Positions 1,236 to 11,401 of a stretch of DNA of 64,000 nucleotides are shown piece after piece. Every line of letters begins with the position of its first letter. The first letter of the stretch is position 1. The notes beneath the pieces were generated by a model. It was not told the origin of the DNA. It made no database searches and was given only the letters and a program-made list of their open reading frames with translations. Position numbers and translations under genes: made by a program. The stretch lies in the IMG/VR virus record IMGVR_UViG_3300025154_001556; one strand, 5' to 3'. This DNA is from a virus (lineage: Duplodnaviria; Caudoviricetes).

Positions 1236-1306
1236 TGTCCCGTAGAGGAATTGAACCCCTTTAAGCGAGTTTAGAGTTCGCCGCAACGCCTGTCTGCCAA
1301 CGGGAC
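1236..1306 (-). tRNA. tRNA with CUA anticodon (amber suppressor); no encoded CCA
   Basis: GTCCCGT-TG-GCAG ACAGGCG TTGC-G-GCGAA CTCTAAA CTCGC-TTAA-AGGGG TTCAATT CCTCT-ACGGGAC-A: perfect 7-bp acceptor stem, D-loop GG, TTC T-loop, one A-C mismatch in the anticodon stem. Confidence 0.88.
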
Positions 1307-1307
1307 T

Positions 1308-1904
1308 TTATGCTGTAATATTTTTGATAGCACTATAATGGTTCCAGATTTCTAAATCAAGTTCGGCGACCGTTTTATTGTATTTATATGCTAGTTTAAC
1401 AAATTCTTGTTCTAATTGCAAGTATTTTCTTTTGGTAGGTGTTGCTTTTGGTGCATCAAACCCCATAAGGCGCATAAATTTAAGTATATGGGTATCTAAC
1501 CCAGCGCAGTTTGCGTTCTTTCTACTATGTATAATAAAACACCTGGCTGTTTTCATTCCTATGCCGTGTATTTTTTCTAAGTCTTCTACGGCGCACTTTT
1601 TTAAATCCAACCCACAACAAGCCAGAGCTATAAAAGTTTTGGCTTTATTGTTATAACAACCTATGCCACAAGATCGTAATAGGTTATCTATACCGTGGAG
1701 CGGGGTACCTACATTGTTAGCAGCATAAGTAAGTATAGCATTAAATGGGGTTTCATCATTATGTGTTATTTTATTGAGCAATGTTTCTAGGCAACGTGCT
1801 GCTGTCTTACCGTTCTTTCCAGCAGCACATACCCAGAATAGTAGGCTCTCTTGTAGTTGAGCCGTAGTTTGATTATAGTTTGTTATGTTGTTTGGATCAA
1901 TCAT
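1308..1904 (-). CDS. HhH-GPD DNA glycosylase/AP lyase (Ogg/EndoIII-like)
   Basis: HhH motif IHGIGMKTAR followed by LDTHILK with the catalytic Asp. Confidence 0.75.
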   Translation of the reverse strand: MIDPNNITNYNQTTAQLQESLLFWVCAAGKNGKTAARCLETLLNKITHNDETPFNAILTYAANNVGTPLHGIDNLLRSCGIGCYNNKAKTFIALACCGLDLKKCAVEDLEKIHGIGMKTARCFIIHSRKNANCAGLDTHILKFMRLMGFDAPKATPTKRKYLQLEQEFVKLAYKYNKTVAELDLEIWNHYSAIKNITA

Positions 1905-2191
1905 AATAGTTGTAACTTTTTAAAAACTTTATCTTCGGCTACTGCTGCTATGGCAGTTAATTCATAGTTCATATCAGGCTCCCTAAAACTCTTCCAGGCC
2001 ACGCCAATCAAATCTAACTTATCACCCCAGTATTTAAGTATATCTTCATTCTTGACTTGCAGATATATTAAAGTGCCGTTGGTCCAAGAGGTTTTATAAT
2101 TAAGTAAATATTCAGCTAAGGCGTGGCCTGCTTGTATGGCCTGTTGTATTTTAGTTAAATCTTTTCTAACAAGCACATACATCTTTTTCAT
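1901..2191 (-). CDS. peptidyl-tRNA hydrolase 2 (Pth2)-like protein
   Basis: MYVLVRKDL...QAGHA...FREPD...LTAIA motifs. Confidence 0.8.
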   Translation of the reverse strand: MKKMYVLVRKDLTKIQQAIQAGHALAEYLLNYKTSWTNGTLIYLQVKNEDILKYWGDKLDLIGVAWKSFREPDMNYELTAIAAVAEDKVFKKLQLL

Positions 2192-2474
2192 ATTGCTTCA
2201 TCACCTCCTCCAATAAATTACTATACGGCGGATTGTAATTAGGTGATCCTGGTACCTCTATTTTTTCCATAGGAGTACCATGTAATAAGCAATATACAAT
2301 ATGTTTATATCTAAACTTTTCTTTAAGTTTGTTTAAATAGCACAGCTCTAATGTGTATTTATTATATATATTAGCACGTTGTGCTTCTTTGTAGCTTAAC
2401 CTGGTTGATCGTATTGAGCTTGCCAATTGTTTAAGTTCTGCTTTAAGTAGCGGCAGTTTTGTTTTCCGTGACAT
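2166..2474 (-). CDS. hypothetical phage protein; first gene after the RAPP leader
   Basis: ORF with SD AAGGAG; RYKHIVYCLLHG motif. Confidence 0.7.
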   Translation of the reverse strand: MSRKTKLPLLKAELKQLASSIRSTRLSYKEAQRANIYNKYTLELCYLNKLKEKFRYKHIVYCLLHGTPMEKIEVPGSPNYNPPYSNLLEEVMKQYEKDVCAC

Positions 2475-2483
2475 AATTATTCT

Positions 2484-2533
2484 CCTTTAATTTGATTAAT
2501 AATAAATTAATTAGTTTAATATCAAATTAAAAG
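2484..2533 (-). promoter_or_regulatory. hairpin sequestering the Shine-Dalgarno site of ORF 2166..2474
   Basis: 5' arm CTTTTAATTTGAT (2533-2521) pairs with 3' arm ATCAAATTAAAGG (2496-2484): 13 bp with one GU, including AAGG of the SD. Confidence 0.7.
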
Positions 2534-2566
2534 TCACGGTGGTGCTCTGGCCTACGTCCAAATCAT
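2534..2566 (-). CDS. leader peptide MIWT-[TAG]-ARAPP (amber-interrupted arrest-type uORF)
   Basis: GGAGG SD (2577-2573), then ATG ATT TGG ACG TAG GCC AGA GCA CCA CCG TGA. Confidence 0.7.
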
Positions 2567-2581
2567 AGTTGTCCTCCTATA

Positions 2582-4003
2582 TTATAGGTCTATTGGAAAT
2601 TTTTTTAATGTTGTTGCTGTATACCCGCGCCAATCACCGGCGTATACTTGCCCATTATACTTCATGTATTCATACATATCAGTGCTATTTAATTTATTAA
2701 GTAATAATTCAGCGTCCACAGTAAACTCACTAAGAACTAAACCTGATCTAACAAGGCTATTATCTAATTCAGAGGTTAGAATAAAGTTAGGTTTATCGTT
2801 TAGAGCAGATGTAACTATACACCGCCCTCCAAAATTGCGCAAGCCTTGTTTTCTGCCAAATTCAAACCATTTATATCCCTTACTTTTACCCTTGTCCCTT
2901 TTTAAAAGTTCCTCCTTATGGTATAAAAGATATTTATATGTTTCAGGAAATCTTGTAGCAAATTTATTCTCATCCAAACAAGTTAAATCAGGTAGGTAAG
3001 GAAATATAATTTGATACTCTGTGTTTATTATGTCTGCTTCTGTTTTTACTACTGATAATTTTACAAGTTTTTTTACTGCTGTTTTTTCAATTTTAAAATT
3101 ATCTACATAAATATAAGTATTATCTACTTTATCTGGTTTTAAAACAAATATGTTGTCTCGTAAAGTGGCAATACCGCCTGTAATTTTACATACATCCCCT
3201 AATACTGCGTTTTTAGTGTTTTGTATTACTATACCATTGTCTACAAACATGTTTCTGTCTATGGCATAGTCATTACCATATAAATTATAGGTAAATGTCT
3301 TATCTATGCTAAACAAATCTTTATTTTTTACCATATAAAGTATGGCAGTATACGCGCCGCATGAAAACTGTTTAGTAGAACCATGGTCTTTTACATAAAA
3401 CACATAATTAGTTATATTATTTCTTAAATTACGGCCGGCCTTAGATCTAAGATATGATGATGGTGTTATTAATGCAACCACACCACCTGGTTTTACTAAC
3501 TCTAAAGCCCTTTGTATAAAAGCATAGTATATATCAGTTGCGCCATTAGCACAGACGGTATAATTATTTTTTAGTAAAGGCCTATATGAGTCATCTAAAT
3601 TTTGTAGTCTTATATAGGGCGGATTACCAATTACAATGTCATATGTATTTTTTAATAGTTTTTTTGTAAATAGGGCATCGCTTTCAAGTATTGTTGGGTG
3701 TATAGATAGATTTGAAAAAATATTTCTAGCCTCGATAACAAAAGTAGTGTCCTTCTCAACAAGTGTTACCAAATTAGCTGCTTCATCAAGAGGCATCCCG
3801 TATTTTGCTGACAACATACCAATAAAATAATAAGCAAACACACCAGTGCCTGCCGCCAAGTCTAAAATACTTGGGCACTTTTTTGTGTCTAATAAGTTCA
3901 AAGCGGTGGAGCACATTTCTTCTACAATATTTTCTGGCGTGAAATGTGCCCCGGATAACTTTCTAAACTCATCAGTTCTTAATATATCTTTGTAAAAATC
4001 CAT
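2582..4003 (-). CDS. N6-adenine DNA methyltransferase, gamma class (Eco57I/TaqI-like)
   Basis: Motif I ILDLAAGTGVF and motif IV GNPPY, followed by a C-terminal target-recognition region. Confidence 0.9.
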   Translation of the reverse strand: MDFYKDILRTDEFRKLSGAHFTPENIVEEMCSTALNLLDTKKCPSILDLAAGTGVFAYYFIGMLSAKYGMPLDEAANLVTLVEKDTTFVIEARNIFSNLSIHPTILESDALFTKKLLKNTYDIVIGNPPYIRLQNLDDSYRPLLKNNYTVCANGATDIYYAFIQRALELVKPGGVVALITPSSYLRSKAGRNLRNNITNYVFYVKDHGSTKQFSCGAYTAILYMVKNKDLFSIDKTFTYNLYGNDYAIDRNMFVDNGIVIQNTKNAVLGDVCKITGGIATLRDNIFVLKPDKVDNTYIYVDNFKIEKTAVKKLVKLSVVKTEADIINTEYQIIFPYLPDLTCLDENKFATRFPETYKYLLYHKEELLKRDKGKSKGYKWFEFGRKQGLRNFGGRCIVTSALNDKPNFILTSELDNSLVRSGLVLSEFTVDAELLLNKLNSTDMYEYMKYNGQVYAGDWRGYTATTLKKFPIDL

Positions 4004-4008
4004 ACCAG

Positions 4009-4683
4009 TTAAAGTGATTCAATATATGTAGTTAATGACACTGATCTGGGCACGTAAACACTTGTTGTATCGATATAAACAGAAGAGTCAAGTTGTCTAT
4101 AAGGAACAAGTACTACATTTACACCTTTACTTAACAGCGACAAATATCTAGCTCTAGAGTGCACGTGTTCTGGATCATTGAGATCCAGAAAAGCCATAAA
4201 AGTAAAGTAGTTTCCGACCACACCTGTTCTGTATTCCATAAGTTTATTATATTGTACATGCCTACCTAATATATCTCTAGCCATATTTGCACTATTTTTA
4301 GCGAGGCTTTGTGTTGCTGCTCTAATTTCTAAACCATGGATAGGAGCTATGTCTAAAAGATCATTATAGTAATCTTCTTTATTCATATAAGTGGCATCAA
4401 CAGTGATTGTATCTTGACTTACAAATCCACCGTAGTTAAACACGTGCTTAAAGGTTAAGTCTGCCTTAGAGGAGGTGCCCTCAGTATGCACACGGCGCTT
4501 ACCCTTAGCTAAGTACATATATCTACAAGCTTGATAAACTTTATATAATTTTGTATCACTTCGTTGCGCATTTTGCCCTGAATAATTTTCAAAAAATTCA
4601 AACATACCTTCTAACCCGCGCTCAAAATTGGCCACAAGGTCCTGTGTAGAAACTTCTTTTGCTATCGCTAATTCTCCAGTCAT
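4009..4683 (-). CDS. hypothetical protein; possible PD-(D/E)XK restriction endonuclease partner of the MTase
   Basis: Directly upstream of the MTase. KADL...LEIRAATQSLAKNSANMARDILG resembles REase D...ExK..S..N..N...E..G patterns. Confidence 0.35.
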   Translation of the reverse strand: MTGELAIAKEVSTQDLVANFERGLEGMFEFFENYSGQNAQRSDTKLYKVYQACRYMYLAKGKRRVHTEGTSSKADLTFKHVFNYGGFVSQDTITVDATYMNKEDYYNDLLDIAPIHGLEIRAATQSLAKNSANMARDILGRHVQYNKLMEYRTGVVGNYFTFMAFLDLNDPEHVHSRARYLSLLSKGVNVVLVPYRQLDSSVYIDTTSVYVPRSVSLTTYIESL

Positions 4684-4772: not shown

Positions 4773-6563
4773 TTACACCCTTGTATTAATACTCCAACCT
4801 TTGTAGTGTTCTGCAGTCATCGTAGCACCCAGATCTGGATTTCTTATGTAATTACGCCATGTGGCATCTACCACACCATCTTTTGTGACATACCAGAAAT
4901 CTTCTACATAGTTGTAATTATCTTTAAGTGGTACTCTTTCATCTATTGCTAAGTCAGTGGCGTAGTATGAACCCTCTATCGGCACCCATTCACCATCGTC
5001 CCGTTTGAATGCTCCCCAACCATGTCCCGCTATGGAGCTACTTGACATAGCCCCTGTGCCGGCTTTAACTAAACCACCATACATTCTTAAACGTGAGGGG
5101 TCTACACCGGAATGTAATGCCAAACTTGTTATAAGGAAAGCCATATCCTCACAATTATGGCATATATGACCAAACTTACTTACGAACGTATGAGTATCAG
5201 CCACCATAAAGTCACGAGTATTGGTGCTGCCCATAGGTTTAACACTGTGTATGGACACTTCGCTTATACCGTCGTACCCGTAGTCCTTTGCAAAATAGCT
5301 ATTAGAGTTATAACTAAGTCGCCATATGGGTTTGTTGCCCACCCCTTTATGGTCTTTTTGTAACCACATATGAATAGGTATGCCCAACTGCATGTGCAGT
5401 CTCTGTAGGTCGTAAGCTAACTTGTACGAGCTAGTTGAATAGGTCTTTTCTTTGTTAGAGTTTTCAGCATATTTTGAGTAATGACCATCCCCAAGAAAGT
5501 GTCCATTTATTATAGCATATAGTTTATTCGCTGGCAAGTAAAATAGTTCTTCCGGTATATTAATATCAAAACTATTGACTTTACAAAGCCTTAAATACTG
5601 CTTCAACTTTGAGCTCAAAAAATTAAGGTAGGGCACACCACTGTTATTAGTAGTAATACTATATGGTATGTTATATTTATCCAAAATAGGTACTATACTT
5701 GTGGGTACATCATAACCACTTGTTCTAACGTGACTACGGTCTGTATCACCTTCAGCTAAAAAATGCCCTATAACAAAACATAAATCTTCGGTAAGCCAGT
5801 CAATGTCTTTAATTACATATGGTAGTTTTTTAACACAAGGTATTTTACGTTTCCACCACCTGCTAAGGTCTATATCACATAGCTTAGTTTTCTCATAGTC
5901 AGAATACTTTTGTACACGCCTAGTCCAGAAAGGGTGGTCCTCTGTCACGTCTATCCAGGTACCATTAGTAAATTTCACCCTAAAAATAGGTAGATTTCCC
6001 TTCTCCCATATTTTAAGCACAGGTTTATAACAATAACTTTTTTTGTTAAAGTCATAAGATAGAACTATGTCCCCTACTTGTAAAGCGCCTACTTCTTTGA
6101 GGCCATCCTTTGTCCAAATTTCCTCATAGTTAGCAGTACAATCCCCGTCCTTATGTAAAAGCGTCTCTGTTGGGTAAGCCCAGTACTCATCGGGGCCGTA
6201 GTTCATGTCATCAGTTTGATAAGTAATATTGCTATTTACCCATTGTTCAACAGCATACATTTTTTCAGTATCTGTTGTAGTGCCTTTGGTTATTTCTGCA
6301 GCGAGTTTAAATAATCTGGTATTGGGATATTCAAAGTATTTATTGTAGTCCAAATCTTGGCCGGCGGCTTTACCACTAACCGCACCATTAAAACGCAAAA
6401 GTGCCACATCAAGAGCTGATTTTGTGTTCATCAGGTCTTGTATAAAGGCACTTGCTGAGTTGGGTTCTGTTTTAAAACTATCCCAAATGGTGGCGGATTT
6501 CCAATTATTGATTTGAGGTAGTAACTCAGATATAAAATTAGATACGCTACTGATTGAAGACAT
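4773..6563 (-). CDS. transglutaminase-like cysteine protease domain protein containing an intein
   Basis: The spliced product reads YWAYPTETLLHKDGD/CEDMAFL...GHGW (transglutaminase GDCED motif plus catalytic His). Confidence 0.85.
   Translation of the reverse strand: MSSISSVSNFISELLPQINNWKSATIWDSFKTEPNSASAFIQDLMNTKSALDVALLRFNGAVSGKAAGQDLDYNKYFEYPNTRLFKLAAEITKGTTTDTEKMYAVEQWVNSNITYQTDDMNYGPDEYWAYPTETLLHKDGDCTANYEEIWTKDGLKEVGALQVGDIVLSYDFNKKSYCYKPVLKIWEKGNLPIFRVKFTNGTWIDVTEDHPFWTRRVQKYSDYEKTKLCDIDLSRWWKRKIPCVKKLPYVIKDIDWLTEDLCFVIGHFLAEGDTDRSHVRTSGYDVPTSIVPILDKYNIPYSITTNNSGVPYLNFLSSKLKQYLRLCKVNSFDINIPEELFYLPANKLYAIINGHFLGDGHYSKYAENSNKEKTYSTSSYKLAYDLQRLHMQLGIPIHMWLQKDHKGVGNKPIWRLSYNSNSYFAKDYGYDGISEVSIHSVKPMGSTNTRDFMVADTHTFVSKFGHICHNCEDMAFLITSLALHSGVDPSRLRMYGGLVKAGTGAMSSSSIAGHGWGAFKRDDGEWVPIEGSYYATDLAIDERVPLKDNYNYVEDFWYVTKDGVVDATWRNYIRNPDLGATMTAEHYKGWSINTRV
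5154..6140 (-). mobile_element. intein (329 aa) with LAGLIDADG homing endonuclease
   Basis: Block A CTANYEEIWTKDG, block B VTEDHPFW, LAGLIDADG helices VIGHFLAEGD and IINGHFLGDGH, block F/G DFMVADTHTFVSKFGHICHN followed by Cys+1. Confidence 0.92.
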
Positions 6564-7595: not shown

Positions 7596-7681
7596 TGGAG
7601 CCTAGAGAGGGATTCGAACCCCCGATGTGTTTTACCACGACAGCTTACAAAACTGCTGCTATACCCCTTAGCGATCTAGGC
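7596..7681 (-). tRNA. tRNA-Thr(UGU) with an atypical long variable arm; CCA encoded
   Basis: GCCTAGA/TCTAGGC acceptor, U73, CCA; anticodon arm GCAGT TTTGTAA GCTGT; 16-nt extra arm CGTGGTAAAACACATC; T-arm GGGGG TTCGAAT CCCTC. Confidence 0.8.
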
Positions 7682-9490: not shown

Positions 9491-9496
9491 TTGTTG

Positions 9497-9578
9497 TGGA
9501 GAGTGATGGAGTCGAACCACCCGAGCTTCCGCATCTGATTTACAGTCAGACCCGCTGCCATCTACGGTATAACTCTCC
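9497..9578 (-). tRNA. tRNA-Tyr(GUA); no CCA
   Basis: GGAGAGT/ACTCTCC acceptor; TCTGA CTGTAAA TCAGA; long variable arm; TTCGAC. Confidence 0.92.
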
Positions 9579-11208: not shown

Positions 11209-11302
<94 letters not shown>

Positions 11303-11318
11303 ATAGTCAATAAAATTG

Positions 11319-11401
11319 CGGAAAAGGTAGGATTCGAACCTACGGAACTTTCGCTCAACGGTTTTCAAGACCGCCGCCTTCAGCCACTCGGCCACTTTTC
11401 C
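11319..11401 (-). tRNA. tRNA-Ser(UGA); no CCA
   Basis: GGAAAAG...GCGGT CTTGAAA ACCGT, long variable arm, G73. Confidence 0.92.

What the first reader, a model, noticed from the sequence alone, without database searches (positions are those of the whole stretch)
2484..2577. Amber-interrupted RAPP leader peptide gating a Shine-Dalgarno hairpin: candidate stop-codon-readthrough sensor
Seen: a strong SD (GGAGG) followed by ATG ATT TGG ACG TAG GCC AGA GCA CCA CCG TGA, which gives MIWT*, or MIWT-X-ARAPP* if TAG is read through. The base right after TGA starts a 13-bp hairpin whose 3' arm contains the SD of the next gene. Known: RAPP/RAGP is the ribosome-arrest motif of ApdA/ApdP/SecM-type peptides, and stalled ribosomes open SD-sequestering hairpins. 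Inference: termination at TAG leaves the ribosome about 19 nt short of the hairpin (OFF). Readthrough moves it to the Pro-Pro/stop site, where it stalls and melts the hairpin (ON). The switch would report suppressor tRNA level or RF1 shortage. The chance of a stop-split RAPP sitting exactly at a hairpin base seems low, but I could not compute it.
Basis: partly seen in the sequence, partly recalled or inferred. Interest (0 to 1): 0.95.

Follow-up and report, generated by a model that had tools for sequence, protein, structure and literature searches.

The report
Amber-gated arrest leader in phage
A ten-codon leader in a groundwater giant phage contains an in-frame UAG stop, then an Arg-Ala-Pro-Pro stalling motif next to a hairpin that hides the next gene's ribosome-binding site; about 100 distant phages keep this design beside their own UAG-reading tRNA, so it most likely switches the operon on only when UAG is being read through.

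Summary
It lies on the minus strand: SD GGAGG, ATG ATT TGG ACG TAG GCC AGA GCA CCA CCG TGA, then a two-tier stem of 7 bp and 12 bp that clamps the SD and AUG of gene 2166..2474.

It is far from chance. In 98 non-redundant loci found through the downstream protein (26-68% identical), 95 carry a short leader with an in-frame TAG followed by Pro-Pro in frame. None uses TGA or TAA in that role.

- The motif is R[G/A/S/D]PP, or [K/R]PP directly followed by a stop.
- The anti-SD lies inside the footprint of a ribosome stalled at the prolines.
- The anti-SD lies at least 11 nt (median 24) past the UAG.
- The SD is paired far more often than in control genes (p = 9e-32).

The conserved module is leader, unknown helical protein, Pth2-fold hydrolase, then tRNA(CUA). 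The tRNA is present in 63 of 73 loci with enough flank.

Best reading (about 0.75): a translational attenuator whose input is amber suppression. Stalling and switching are inferred, not shown. I found no published natural precedent. This scan flagged the same class earlier in three other genomes. The functions of the regulated proteins remain open.

The parts
2573..2577 (-). Shine-Dalgarno (GGAGG) of the leader ORF, 6 nt before its ATG
   Evidence: sequence; equivalent SDs in relatives
2534..2566 (-). Leader ORF: M I W T UAG A R A P P UGA (10 sense/recoded codons plus stop)
   Evidence: conserved as MIWT*[A/T/V]R[A/G]PP* in L001, L004, L005
2552..2554 (-). In-frame amber codon (the gate), followed by a purine
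   Evidence: TAG in 95 of 98 relatives, never TGA or TAA; purine after TAG in 94 of 95
2537..2548 (-). Arg-Ala-Pro-Pro codons (AGA GCA CCA CCG): predicted arrest site
   Evidence: RAPP and RGPP are versatile, EF-P-refractory arrest cores (PMC12992588)
2533..2539 (-). 5' arm of the outer helix (CCGUGAC: second Pro codon, UGA stop and next base)
   Evidence: same helix in L001, L004, L005
2521..2532 (-). 5' arm of the inner helix (anti-SD side)
2485..2496 (-). 3' arm of the inner helix; covers UAAAG of the SD region
2482..2488 (-). Shine-Dalgarno (AAAGGAG) of the regulated gene
   Evidence: P(SD paired) 0.85 in 104 relatives against 0.44 in controls
2466..2472 (-). 3' arm of the outer helix (G of the AUG plus codons 2-3 of the regulated gene)
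2166..2474 (-). First regulated gene: 102-aa helical-hairpin protein of unknown function (family of about 725 clusters at 50% identity)
   Evidence: no Pfam, PHROG, PDB or AFDB match
1901..2191 (-). Second gene, overlapping the first: 96-aa Pth2-fold (peptidyl-tRNA hydrolase 2-like) protein
   Evidence: TM 0.8 to archaeal Pth2 and human Bit1; follows the first gene in 79 of 104 loci
1308..1904 (-). Ogg/HhH-type glycosylase-like gene in the same run (not conserved in the wider module: 7 of 104 loci)
1236..1306 (-). tRNA with anticodon CUA (amber suppressor type), same strand, at the end of the gene run
   Evidence: syntenic tRNA(CUA) in 63 of 73 relatives with at least 1.5 kb of downstream flank

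Best explanation
This is a cis-acting translational attenuator whose input is amber (UAG) readthrough.

- OFF state: ribosomes start at the leader AUG, make Met-Ile-Trp-Thr and meet UAG. If RF1 wins, they terminate there. Their leading edge (about 12 nt past the U of UAG) stops short of the stem, and the SD and AUG of gene 2166..2474 stay clamped by the two helices.
- ON state: if the phage's own tRNA(CUA), encoded at the end of the same gene run, decodes UAG, the ribosome goes on to Arg-Ala-Pro-Pro-UGA. There it is predicted to stall. The stall could be a RAPP-type block of peptide-bond formation, with Pro-tRNA in the A site, and/or slow release at Pro-Pro-stop.
- The stalled ribosome sits on the outer helix and the first half of the inner helix. 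This frees the ribosome-binding site, so the helical protein and the overlapping Pth2-like gene are translated.

Shown: the anatomy, its conservation, the frame, the TAG specificity, the linkage to tRNA(CUA) and the geometry. Inferred: readthrough, stalling and induction.

The likely purpose is to couple production of a peptidyl-tRNA hydrolase-like enzyme and its partner to the level of suppressor activity. That could serve as damage control or as feedback. This last step is speculation.
For: (1) The four closest relatives (downstream protein 54-68% identical) keep the leader as MIWT*xR[A/G]PP*. They differ by a synonymous AGA to CGT change and a CCA to CCG change. Loops of 15-24 nt are unrelated, but the two helices are the same.

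(2) 98 non-redundant loci were found only through the downstream protein. 95 have TAG followed in frame by Pro-Pro. Under one strict pattern, 47 of 58 metagenome loci match with TAG, 0 with TGA and 0 with TAA.

(3) The pattern occurs nowhere else in 351 kb of those loci, against 0.9 expected by chance.

(4) Motif classes match published arrest rules.
- R[G/A/S/D]PP is followed by a sense codon in 22 of 34 loci.
- [K/R]PP and similar motifs are directly stop-adjacent in 60 of 61 loci (Fisher p = 5e-12).
- RAPP and RGPP are robust cores, and Ala to Ser, Asp or Pro is partly permissive (PMC12992588).
- Pro-Pro-stop blocks release in hCMV uORF2 only when a stop follows (PMC4605324).

(5) 39 of 95 first Pro codons are not CCU. 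Pro-Pro is therefore not merely the anti-SD sequence CCUCC.

(6) Geometry. The first anti-SD nucleotide lies -3..+15 nt from the stall P-site codon in 87 of 95 loci. It lies at least 11 nt (5th percentile 13, median 24) from the U of UAG. All but one of the 95 leaders have at least 3 codons between TAG and the prolines.

(7) P(SD paired upstream) is 0.85 against 0.44 in 504 control genes, p = 9e-32.

(8) A tRNA(CUA) is present in 63 of 73 loci with enough flank, at a median of 608 nt from the gene start on the same strand. It is the commonest tRNA there.

(9) Independent variants put the TAG inside the regulated genes themselves. In L025 the helical-protein gene starts M-R-TAG. In Serratia phage BF the Pth2-like gene starts M-T-H-TAG, and that phage has a tRNA(CUA).
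Against: - There is no experimental or expression evidence. No RNA run holds this DNA.
- The nascent chain is only 10 residues. Published RAPP arrests were measured in longer contexts that include upstream tunnel residues.
- Arg is reported as irreplaceable in ApdA, ApdP and SecM, yet more than half of the relatives have Lys-Pro-Pro-stop. At least that class must stall, if at all, by another route.
- In the window itself the SD core is only partly paired (P = 0.33 by my measure). Masking relies on the two flanking helices.
- Among the four close relatives the helices vary only by wobble or mismatch changes. There are no double compensatory changes.
- In many RxPP loci CCUCCU doubles as the anti-SD, so part of the Pro-Pro conservation is at nucleotide level.
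- The amino acid carried by the tRNA(CUA) is unknown, as is whether the tRNA is charged.
Confidence: 0.75

Rival explanations
1. The gate is the same (UAG readthrough) but there is no true arrest. Ribosomes that read through open the stem only while they pass or terminate at its foot. The next gene is then turned on by translational coupling or re-initiation, or by preventing Rho-dependent polarity on the untranslated message, as in the synthetic TAG-in-tnaC design.
For: The leader stop lies 45-82 nt from the next AUG and at the foot of the stem. A synthetic precedent works by masking a rut site (PMC6412442). The Lys-Pro-Pro class does not fit the strict RAPP rule.
Against: It does not explain why a basic residue plus Pro-Pro is kept in about 95 of 98 loci. 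It also does not explain why non-RxPP motifs are always stop-adjacent while RxPP motifs are often followed by sense codons. Distances of 45-82 nt are long for re-initiation.
Confidence: 0.12
2. The leader reports host release-factor-1 activity or general termination efficiency at UAG, for example a host state or RF1 inhibition. It does not report the phage tRNA(CUA) specifically.
For: Readthrough depends on the tRNA to RF1 ratio, so the device cannot tell the two apart.
Against: The tight physical linkage to a tRNA(CUA) gene points to the tRNA as the relevant variable: 63 of 73 loci, median 608 nt downstream. No RF genes were seen in the flanks I inspected.
Confidence: 0.07
3. It is an RNA-only element. 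A plain RBS-masking hairpin is opened by some trans factor, and the ATG, TAG and Pro-Pro are by-products of anti-SD sequence (CCUCC) and AT-rich context.
For: 56 of 95 first Pro codons are CCU. In many RxPP loci CCUCCU is itself the anti-SD.
Against: ATG, TAG and Pro-Pro share one frame in 95 loci. Arg is kept through AGA, CGT and CGC. 39 of 95 first Pro codons cannot pair with GGAGG. The internal stop is always TAG. A strong SD precedes the leader.
Confidence: 0.03
4. It is a bar-like minigene. The 2-5 codon ORF ending at UAG provokes peptidyl-tRNA drop-off, and the Pth2-like enzyme downstream cleans up. The sequence after UAG is not translated.
For: Most leaders have only 2 sense codons before TAG. 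A Pth2-fold gene is in the operon.
Against: It does not explain the in-frame conserved K/R-(x)-Pro-Pro after TAG, the restriction to TAG, or the fixed spacing to the anti-SD.
Confidence: 0.03

Closest known systems
RAPP/RGPP-type ribosome arrest peptides (ApdA, ApdP, ApcA; SecM with RAGP)
   Same: The C-terminal Arg-Ala/Gly-Pro-Pro core is shared. The tolerated variants (Ser, Asp or Pro at position 2) are the ones seen in the relatives. The peptide is encoded just upstream of the regulated gene, and the stall is expected to open an RBS-masking stem (PMC12992588; PMC7897499 listed).
   Different: The known members are monitoring substrates of 100 or more residues. They carry a signal peptide or TM segment, sit upstream of Sec/YidC genes, and are released by translocation force. 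This peptide has 10 residues and no targeting signal. It sits upstream of an unknown protein plus a Pth2-like gene, and it is gated by an in-frame stop codon. Many relatives use Lys-Pro-Pro-stop instead.
Drug-dependent leader-peptide attenuators (ErmCL/ermC, Cat and Cml leaders)
   Same: A very short leader ORF with its own SD; a stalled ribosome on the 5' arm of a hairpin frees the SD of the next gene (own knowledge; ErmCL is mentioned in PMC4605324).
   Different: The inducer there is an antibiotic bound in the exit tunnel. Here the conditional step is decoding of UAG.
hCMV gp48 (UL4) uORF2
   Same: A Pro-Pro-stop at the end of a uORF silences release, and stalling needs the stop codon (PMC4605324). 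This parallels the [K/R]PP class, which is stop-adjacent in 60 of 61 loci.
   Different: It is eukaryotic and 22 residues long. It represses the downstream ORF by blocking scanning, and it contains no internal stop codon.
prfB (RF2) autoregulatory in-frame UGA with +1 frameshift
   Same: An in-frame stop codon early in the message turns the competition between termination and an alternative decoding event into a regulatory signal (own knowledge).
   Different: There the alternative event is frameshifting within the gene itself, and the variable sensed is RF2. No leader, arrest motif or hairpin is involved.
Engineered TAG-in-leader switches (unnatural-amino-acid control of tna/trp leaders)
   Same: A UAG in a leader peptide makes downstream expression depend on an amber suppressor tRNA (review PMC6412442).
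   Different: Those switches are man-made and act on transcription through rut masking. The present element is natural, widespread and built around an SD hairpin.
Code-change modules of stop-codon-recoded phages (Borges et al., bioRxiv 10.1101/2021.08.26.457843)
   Same: A phage-encoded suppressor tRNA is proposed to time gene expression.
   Different: Those phages carry many in-frame stops in late genes. This window and the relatives' flanks use the standard code, with TAG as an ordinary stop. That paper mentions no leader, stall or hairpin.

Membership tests
RAPP-type arrest peptides (ApdA/ApdP/ApcA/SecM class) | C-terminal core R-A/G-P-P (or RAGP, RAPG) at the arrest point | tested here: met
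   AGA GCA CCA CCG at 2548-2537; RGPP in L001, L004 and L005; RxPP in 34 of 95 relatives
RAPP-type arrest peptides (ApdA/ApdP/ApcA/SecM class) | Secretory or membrane monitoring substrate: N-terminal signal or TM segment, upstream of Sec/YidC genes, arrest released by translocation | tested here: not met
   The peptide has 10 residues and no room for a signal. The downstream genes are an unknown helical protein and a Pth2-fold protein
RAPP-type arrest peptides (ApdA/ApdP/ApcA/SecM class) | Demonstrated elongation arrest with the third codon in the P site and Pro-tRNA in the A site, refractory to EF-P | not testable with these tools
   Needs toeprinting or peptidyl-tRNA detection
Leader-peptide translational attenuators (ermC type) | Short leader ORF with its own SD directly upstream of the regulated gene | tested here: met
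   GGAGG, 6 nt, ATG; found in nearly all relatives
Leader-peptide translational attenuators (ermC type) | RBS of the regulated gene sequestered in a stem whose 5' arm lies under the stalled ribosome | tested here: met
   for the window. Anti-SD lies -3..+15 nt from the stall P site in 87 of 95 loci. P(SD paired) is 0.85 against 0.44 in controls
Leader-peptide translational attenuators (ermC type) | Induction of the downstream gene on stalling | not testable with these tools
   Needs reporter assays
Stop-codon-recoded phages (TAG reassigned, code 15 type) | Many in-frame TAG codons in phage genes; standard-code gene calls fragmented | tested here: not met
   Standard-code ORFs cover 0.89 of the window. 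Reading TAG as sense gains no more than the TGA control. 12 of 72 long ORFs end in TAG. The TAG-joined ORF pairs I looked at seem to be separate genes
Stop-codon-recoded phages (TAG reassigned, code 15 type) | Phage-encoded suppressor tRNA | tested here: met
   tRNA(CUA) at 1236-1306
Lambda bar-type minigenes | Two- or three-codon ORF whose only product is a dropped-off peptidyl-tRNA; nothing conserved beyond its stop | tested here: not met
   In-frame K/R-(x)-P-P is conserved after the TAG in 95 of 98 loci
Pth2 (peptidyl-tRNA hydrolase 2) family, for gene 1901..2191 | Pth2 fold and sequence signature | tested here: met
   Model pLDDT 96.6. Foldseek hits 2zv3, 3erj, 1xty and 1q7s at TM about 0.8, E 2e-6 to 1e-4. 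The profile hits PDB Pth2 at E 1e-3. Pfam PF01981 scores below its cut-off. Activity was not tested

The most novel reading that the evidence does not exclude
The leader, the helical protein, the Pth2-like enzyme and the tRNA(CUA) may form a self-contained control circuit for stop-codon suppression. The leader measures how well UAG is being read. It then sets the level of two proteins that act back on suppression or on its side effects, for example by acting on RF1, on the suppressor tRNA or on peptidyl-tRNA. That would give a feedback loop or a switch. It would also give the 'orphan' amber-suppressor tRNAs of standard-code jumbo phages (such as XacN1, PMC5852040) their first natural target, and it would be a natural sensor of genetic-code state.
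Probability: 0.3. Interest if true: 0.95.

Novelty: new variant of a known kind. Interest (0 to 1): 0.86.

Why it matters
- Leader-peptide attenuators are known to sense antibiotics, amino acids, charged tRNA and secretion. A natural one that senses readthrough of a stop codon has, as far as I could find, not been described.
- Many large phages carry tRNA(CUA) yet use the standard code. The XacN1 authors could find no target for theirs. This leader is a conserved, specific target, and it ties the tRNA to a Pth2-like enzyme.
- It offers a compact natural part, about 100 nt, that converts suppressor activity into gene expression. This is the logic that synthetic biologists built by hand for unnatural amino acids.
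- The roughly 100 natural variants form a ready-made mutational series for short arrest peptides. RxPP motifs are often followed by sense codons, while [K/R]PP motifs are always followed by a stop.
- The related in-frame-TAG variant in cultured phages (Serratia phage BF and relatives) makes the idea testable at the bench.

Tried and rejected
- DNA similarity to known phages: none. Exact-pattern scan of viral contigs: none. The first single-protein scan of viral contigs also found nothing.
- Function of the 102-aa protein: no Pfam or PHROG family. Foldseek against PDB and AFDB, and the ESM Atlas, gave only generic helical hairpins. tblastn of a family member against cultured phages found nothing.
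- Complex prediction of the 102-aa protein with the Pth2-like protein: no verdict (score 0.17, under the mark). This is neither support nor evidence against binding.
- Genome-wide TAG recoding: rejected for the window and the flanks. The ORF pairs joined by TAG that I looked at seem to be separate genes (HNH endonuclease, dUTPase behind polA).
- Intrinsic terminator reading of the stem: rejected. No U-run follows it and the scan listed none there.
- Promoter directly before the leader: the one candidate (TTAAAA-16-TATAAT, 2608-2581) would start transcription inside the leader SD. In this phage the leader is probably read from an upstream transcript. L001 and L004 have a clean TTGACA/TATAAT promoter instead.
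- Rfam: no family on the leader.
- RNA evidence: no RNA run holds the stretch.
- Column-wise pair counting on the MAFFT alignment A5 was dropped because the 3' arm of L001 is shifted by one column. Each sequence was folded on its own instead.
- Genome-contig scan for prophage copies: none.
- Six literature searches found no natural precedent.

Full report
OBSERVATION. The feature lies on the minus strand.
- The upstream gene 2582..4003 is an Eco57I-like N6-adenine methyltransferase. Four bases after its stop comes a strong SD (GGAGG, 2577-2573).
- Six bases later the leader reads ATG ATT TGG ACG TAG GCC AGA GCA CCA CCG TGA (2566-2534).
- RNA folding gives a two-tier stem rather than one 13-bp hairpin.
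  - Outer helix: CCGUGAC (2539-2533, the last Pro codon, the UGA and one base) pairs with GUCACGG (2472-2466, the G of the next AUG and its codons 2-3).
  - Inner helix: 12 bp, 2532-2521 with 2496-2485.
- The SD AAAGGAG of the next gene (2488-2482) is half inside the inner helix. The rest of it, with the spacer and AU of the start codon, forms a 12-nt internal loop closed on both sides.
- The 75-nt stretch folds at -16 kcal/mol, z = -3.99.
- ARAGORN and Rfam find a tRNA with anticodon CUA at 1236-1306, on the same strand.

IS IT MORE THAN CHANCE?
- The downstream 102-aa protein has three close relatives, 54-68% identical. I fetched their contigs.
- All of them carry the same leader: ATGATTTGGACGTAG, one variable codon (GCC, ACC, ACT, GTT), Arg (AGA or CGT), Ala or Gly, CCA or CCG, CCG, TGA.
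- The upstream gene differs. In those relatives a small ORF or a transglutaminase gene with a consensus promoter takes the place of the methyltransferase.
- The hairpin loops are unrelated in sequence and length. Each RNA folds on its own into the same outer and inner helices, and the arms differ only by wobble or mismatch changes.
- Profiles of the protein family (about 725 clusters at 50% identity) then brought in two further sets of loci. They gave 57 IMG/VR loci (17 and 40; several contigs fetched twice) and 76 metagenome loci. All were chosen only by the protein.
- After removing duplicates and loci without upstream sequence, 98 remain. 95 have an in-frame TAG followed by Pro-Pro in frame, just upstream of the gene.
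- Two of the other three have RGP-stop or RASP-stop. In the third the gene start is probably mis-assigned.
- With one strict pattern, 47 of 58 metagenome loci match with TAG as the internal stop. None matches with TGA or TAA.
- The pattern ATG..TAG..Pro-Pro-stop occurs nowhere else on either strand of 351 kb of these loci, where shuffles give 0.9. It occurs once in the 64-kb window.

WHAT IS CONSERVED.
- Most leaders have one sense codon after the AUG, often Thr, and then TAG.
- The base after TAG is a purine in 94 of 95 loci.
- Fifteen of the first 46 leaders have two TAGs.
- All but one of the 95 leaders have at least three codons between the last TAG and the first Pro.
- The stall motif falls into two classes.
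  - R-[G/A/S/D]-P-P occurs in 34 loci. It is followed by a sense codon in 22 of them.
  - [K/R]-P-P, with a few I/H/L-P-P, is directly followed by a stop in 60 of 61 loci (Fisher p = 5e-12).
- This split is what known biology predicts.
  - RAPP and RGPP block peptide-bond formation with Pro-tRNA in the A site. They are refractory to EF-P and tolerate Ser, Asp or Pro partly at the second position (PMC12992588).
  - A C-terminal Pro-Pro impairs release only when a stop codon follows, as in hCMV uORF2 (PMC4605324). It also does so in E. coli (Hayes, Bose and Sauer 2002; I saw only the citation and did not read the paper).
- The Pro codons are not just the anti-SD sequence. 39 of 95 first Pro codons are CCA, CCG or CCC, which cannot pair with GGAGG. 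In the window the Pro codons are not the part that pairs with the SD.
- In many RxPP loci CCUCCU does double as the anti-SD. This is a caveat on the strength of the peptide-level argument for that subset.

GEOMETRY.
- I folded each RNA from the last UAG to the gene start.
- The SD core is paired in the minimum-energy structure in all 95 loci.
- The first anti-SD nucleotide lies -3 to +15 nt from the first base of the predicted stall P-site codon in 87 of 95 loci.
- It is never closer than 11 nt to the U of UAG (5th percentile 13, median 24).
- A ribosome with UAG in its A site covers roughly 12 nt beyond that U (textbook footprint, own knowledge). It should therefore leave the stem closed, while a ribosome held at the prolines sits on it.
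- In the window the first stem base (2539) is 15 nt from the U of UAG (2554).
- With CCA in the P site, a 15-nt reach (to 2527) covers the whole outer helix and half of the inner one.
- The probability that the SD core pairs with an upstream partner is 0.85 (median 1.00) in 104 loci. It is 0.44 in 504 other SD-bearing genes of the same loci (Mann-Whitney p = 9e-32).
- The window's own value is 0.33, for the anatomical reason given under OBSERVATION.

THE MODULE.
- A 96-aa gene overlaps the 3' end of the 102-aa gene (window 1901..2191). It is present in 79 of 104 loci and is better conserved than its neighbour.
- Its model (pLDDT 96.6) matches archaeal Pth2 and human Bit1 at TM about 0.8. The sequence profile reaches PDB Pth2 only marginally. 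It has the Pth2 fold, but its activity is unproven.
- A tRNA(CUA) follows on the same strand at a median of 608 nt from the first gene's start. It is present in 63 of 73 loci with at least 1.5 kb of downstream flank, and it is the commonest tRNA in these loci, 77 of 237.
- Neither the window nor the flanks of the relatives are TAG-recoded. Standard-code ORFs cover 0.89 of the window, and 12 of 72 long ORFs end in TAG. In this window the leader is the only evident place where UAG should be read as sense.
- Two natural variants support the logic without a leader.
  - In L025 the helical-protein gene itself begins M-R-TAG-EELKK.
  - In the cultured Serratia phage BF an unannotated Pth2-like gene begins ATG ACG CAC TAG. 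It has no alternative in-frame start, and a tRNA(CUA) lies 3.3 kb downstream.

MECHANISM.
- I commit to the model in which termination at UAG leaves the RBS masked. Readthrough by the phage tRNA(CUA) carries the ribosome to R-A-P-P-UGA. It stalls there, holds the stem open, and allows initiation on the helical-protein and Pth2-like genes.
- Shown: the anatomy, frame, specificity for TAG, linkage to the tRNA and geometry.
- Inferred: readthrough, stalling and induction.
- Rivals:
  - gating without true arrest, by coupling or Rho polarity;
  - sensing of RF1 rather than of the tRNA;
  - an RNA-only hairpin;
  - a bar-like minigene.
- The last two fail to explain the in-frame conservation after TAG.
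- Why a Pth2-like enzyme should be tied to suppression is open. Clean-up of peptidyl-tRNA and of readthrough-induced stalls is one idea. Seven of the 98 loci also carry a tmRNA call. Feedback on the suppressor is another idea.

COMPARISON AND NOVELTY.
- The element works like an ermC-type attenuator and uses a RAPP-type core.
- It is not a member of the ApdA/ApdP/SecM monitoring-substrate family. It has no signal sequence, no Sec/YidC gene downstream and only 10 residues.
- It is not the code-change module of recoded phages.
- Engineered TAG-in-leader switches exist (PMC6412442). A natural one did not turn up in six full-text searches.
- The XacN1 paper states that targets of its two tRNA(CUA) genes could not be found.
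- This scan had already flagged the same class of leader in three other genomes, and the follow-up agents reached the same reading. Those notes are not independent evidence. Everything above was tested here on my own loci.

LIMITS.
- There is no expression data. The DNA is held by groundwater and soil metagenome runs of nine studies, and none of those runs is RNA.
- The host is unknown.
- The function of the 102-aa protein is unknown: a helical hairpin at pLDDT 90 with no informative match.
- The complex prediction with the Pth2-like protein gave no verdict.

Noticed in passing
L025:3986-4310 (IMGVR_UViG_3300027902_000013): A homolog of the 102-aa protein has no leader. Its own reading frame starts ATG CGG TAG and continues in frame into the conserved N-terminus, so it seems to need amber readthrough directly.
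   Followed up: partly
L140:1473-1794 (Serratia phage BF, KY630187.1 about 286082-286403): An unannotated Pth2-like gene in a cultured jumbo phage begins M-T-H-TAG and has no other in-frame start. The phage has a tRNA(CUA) at 289666. The same spot is unannotated in Yersinia fHe-Yen9-03/04 and the Erwinia pEa_SNUABM phages, which I did not inspect.
   Followed up: partly
L139:961-1800 (Xanthomonas phage XacN1 ORF364): Here the Pth2-like domain is the C-terminal part of a 280-aa protein with another N-terminal domain. I saw no TAG and no leader.
   Followed up: no
window 2582-4683 (-): The Eco57I-like methyltransferase and a 224-aa ORF are absent from the syntenic place in L001 and L004. There a TTGACA-17-TATAAT promoter precedes the leader, so this looks like an insertion that displaced the promoter.
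   Followed up: partly
window 4773-6563 (-): The transglutaminase-like gene carries an intein with a LAGLIDADG domain. Its homologs in L001 and L004 are 267-270 aa and intein-free.
   Followed up: no
L007, L010, L013, L017, L020 and two more module loci: ARAGORN calls phage-encoded tmRNA genes within a few kb of the module (7 of 98 loci).
   Followed up: no
leaders of L028, L044, L071, L077, L092, L093, L097 and others: In two-TAG leaders the residues before the second TAG are very often Gly-Phe-Thr. Thr precedes TAG in 35 of 95 leaders, and a purine follows TAG in 94 of 95. This may be a context tuned for suppression over release.
   Followed up: partly
L015, L017, L040, L100, L103: In some relatives the 'leader' is the readthrough extension of the upstream gene. 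That gene ends in TAG and continues in frame to the Pro-Pro motif.
   Followed up: partly
window 7596-7681, 9496-9578, 11210-11401 (-): Several tRNA genes in the window are unusually long (83-93 nt), including a tRNA-Thr(UGU) of 86 nt. I did not examine them.
   Followed up: no
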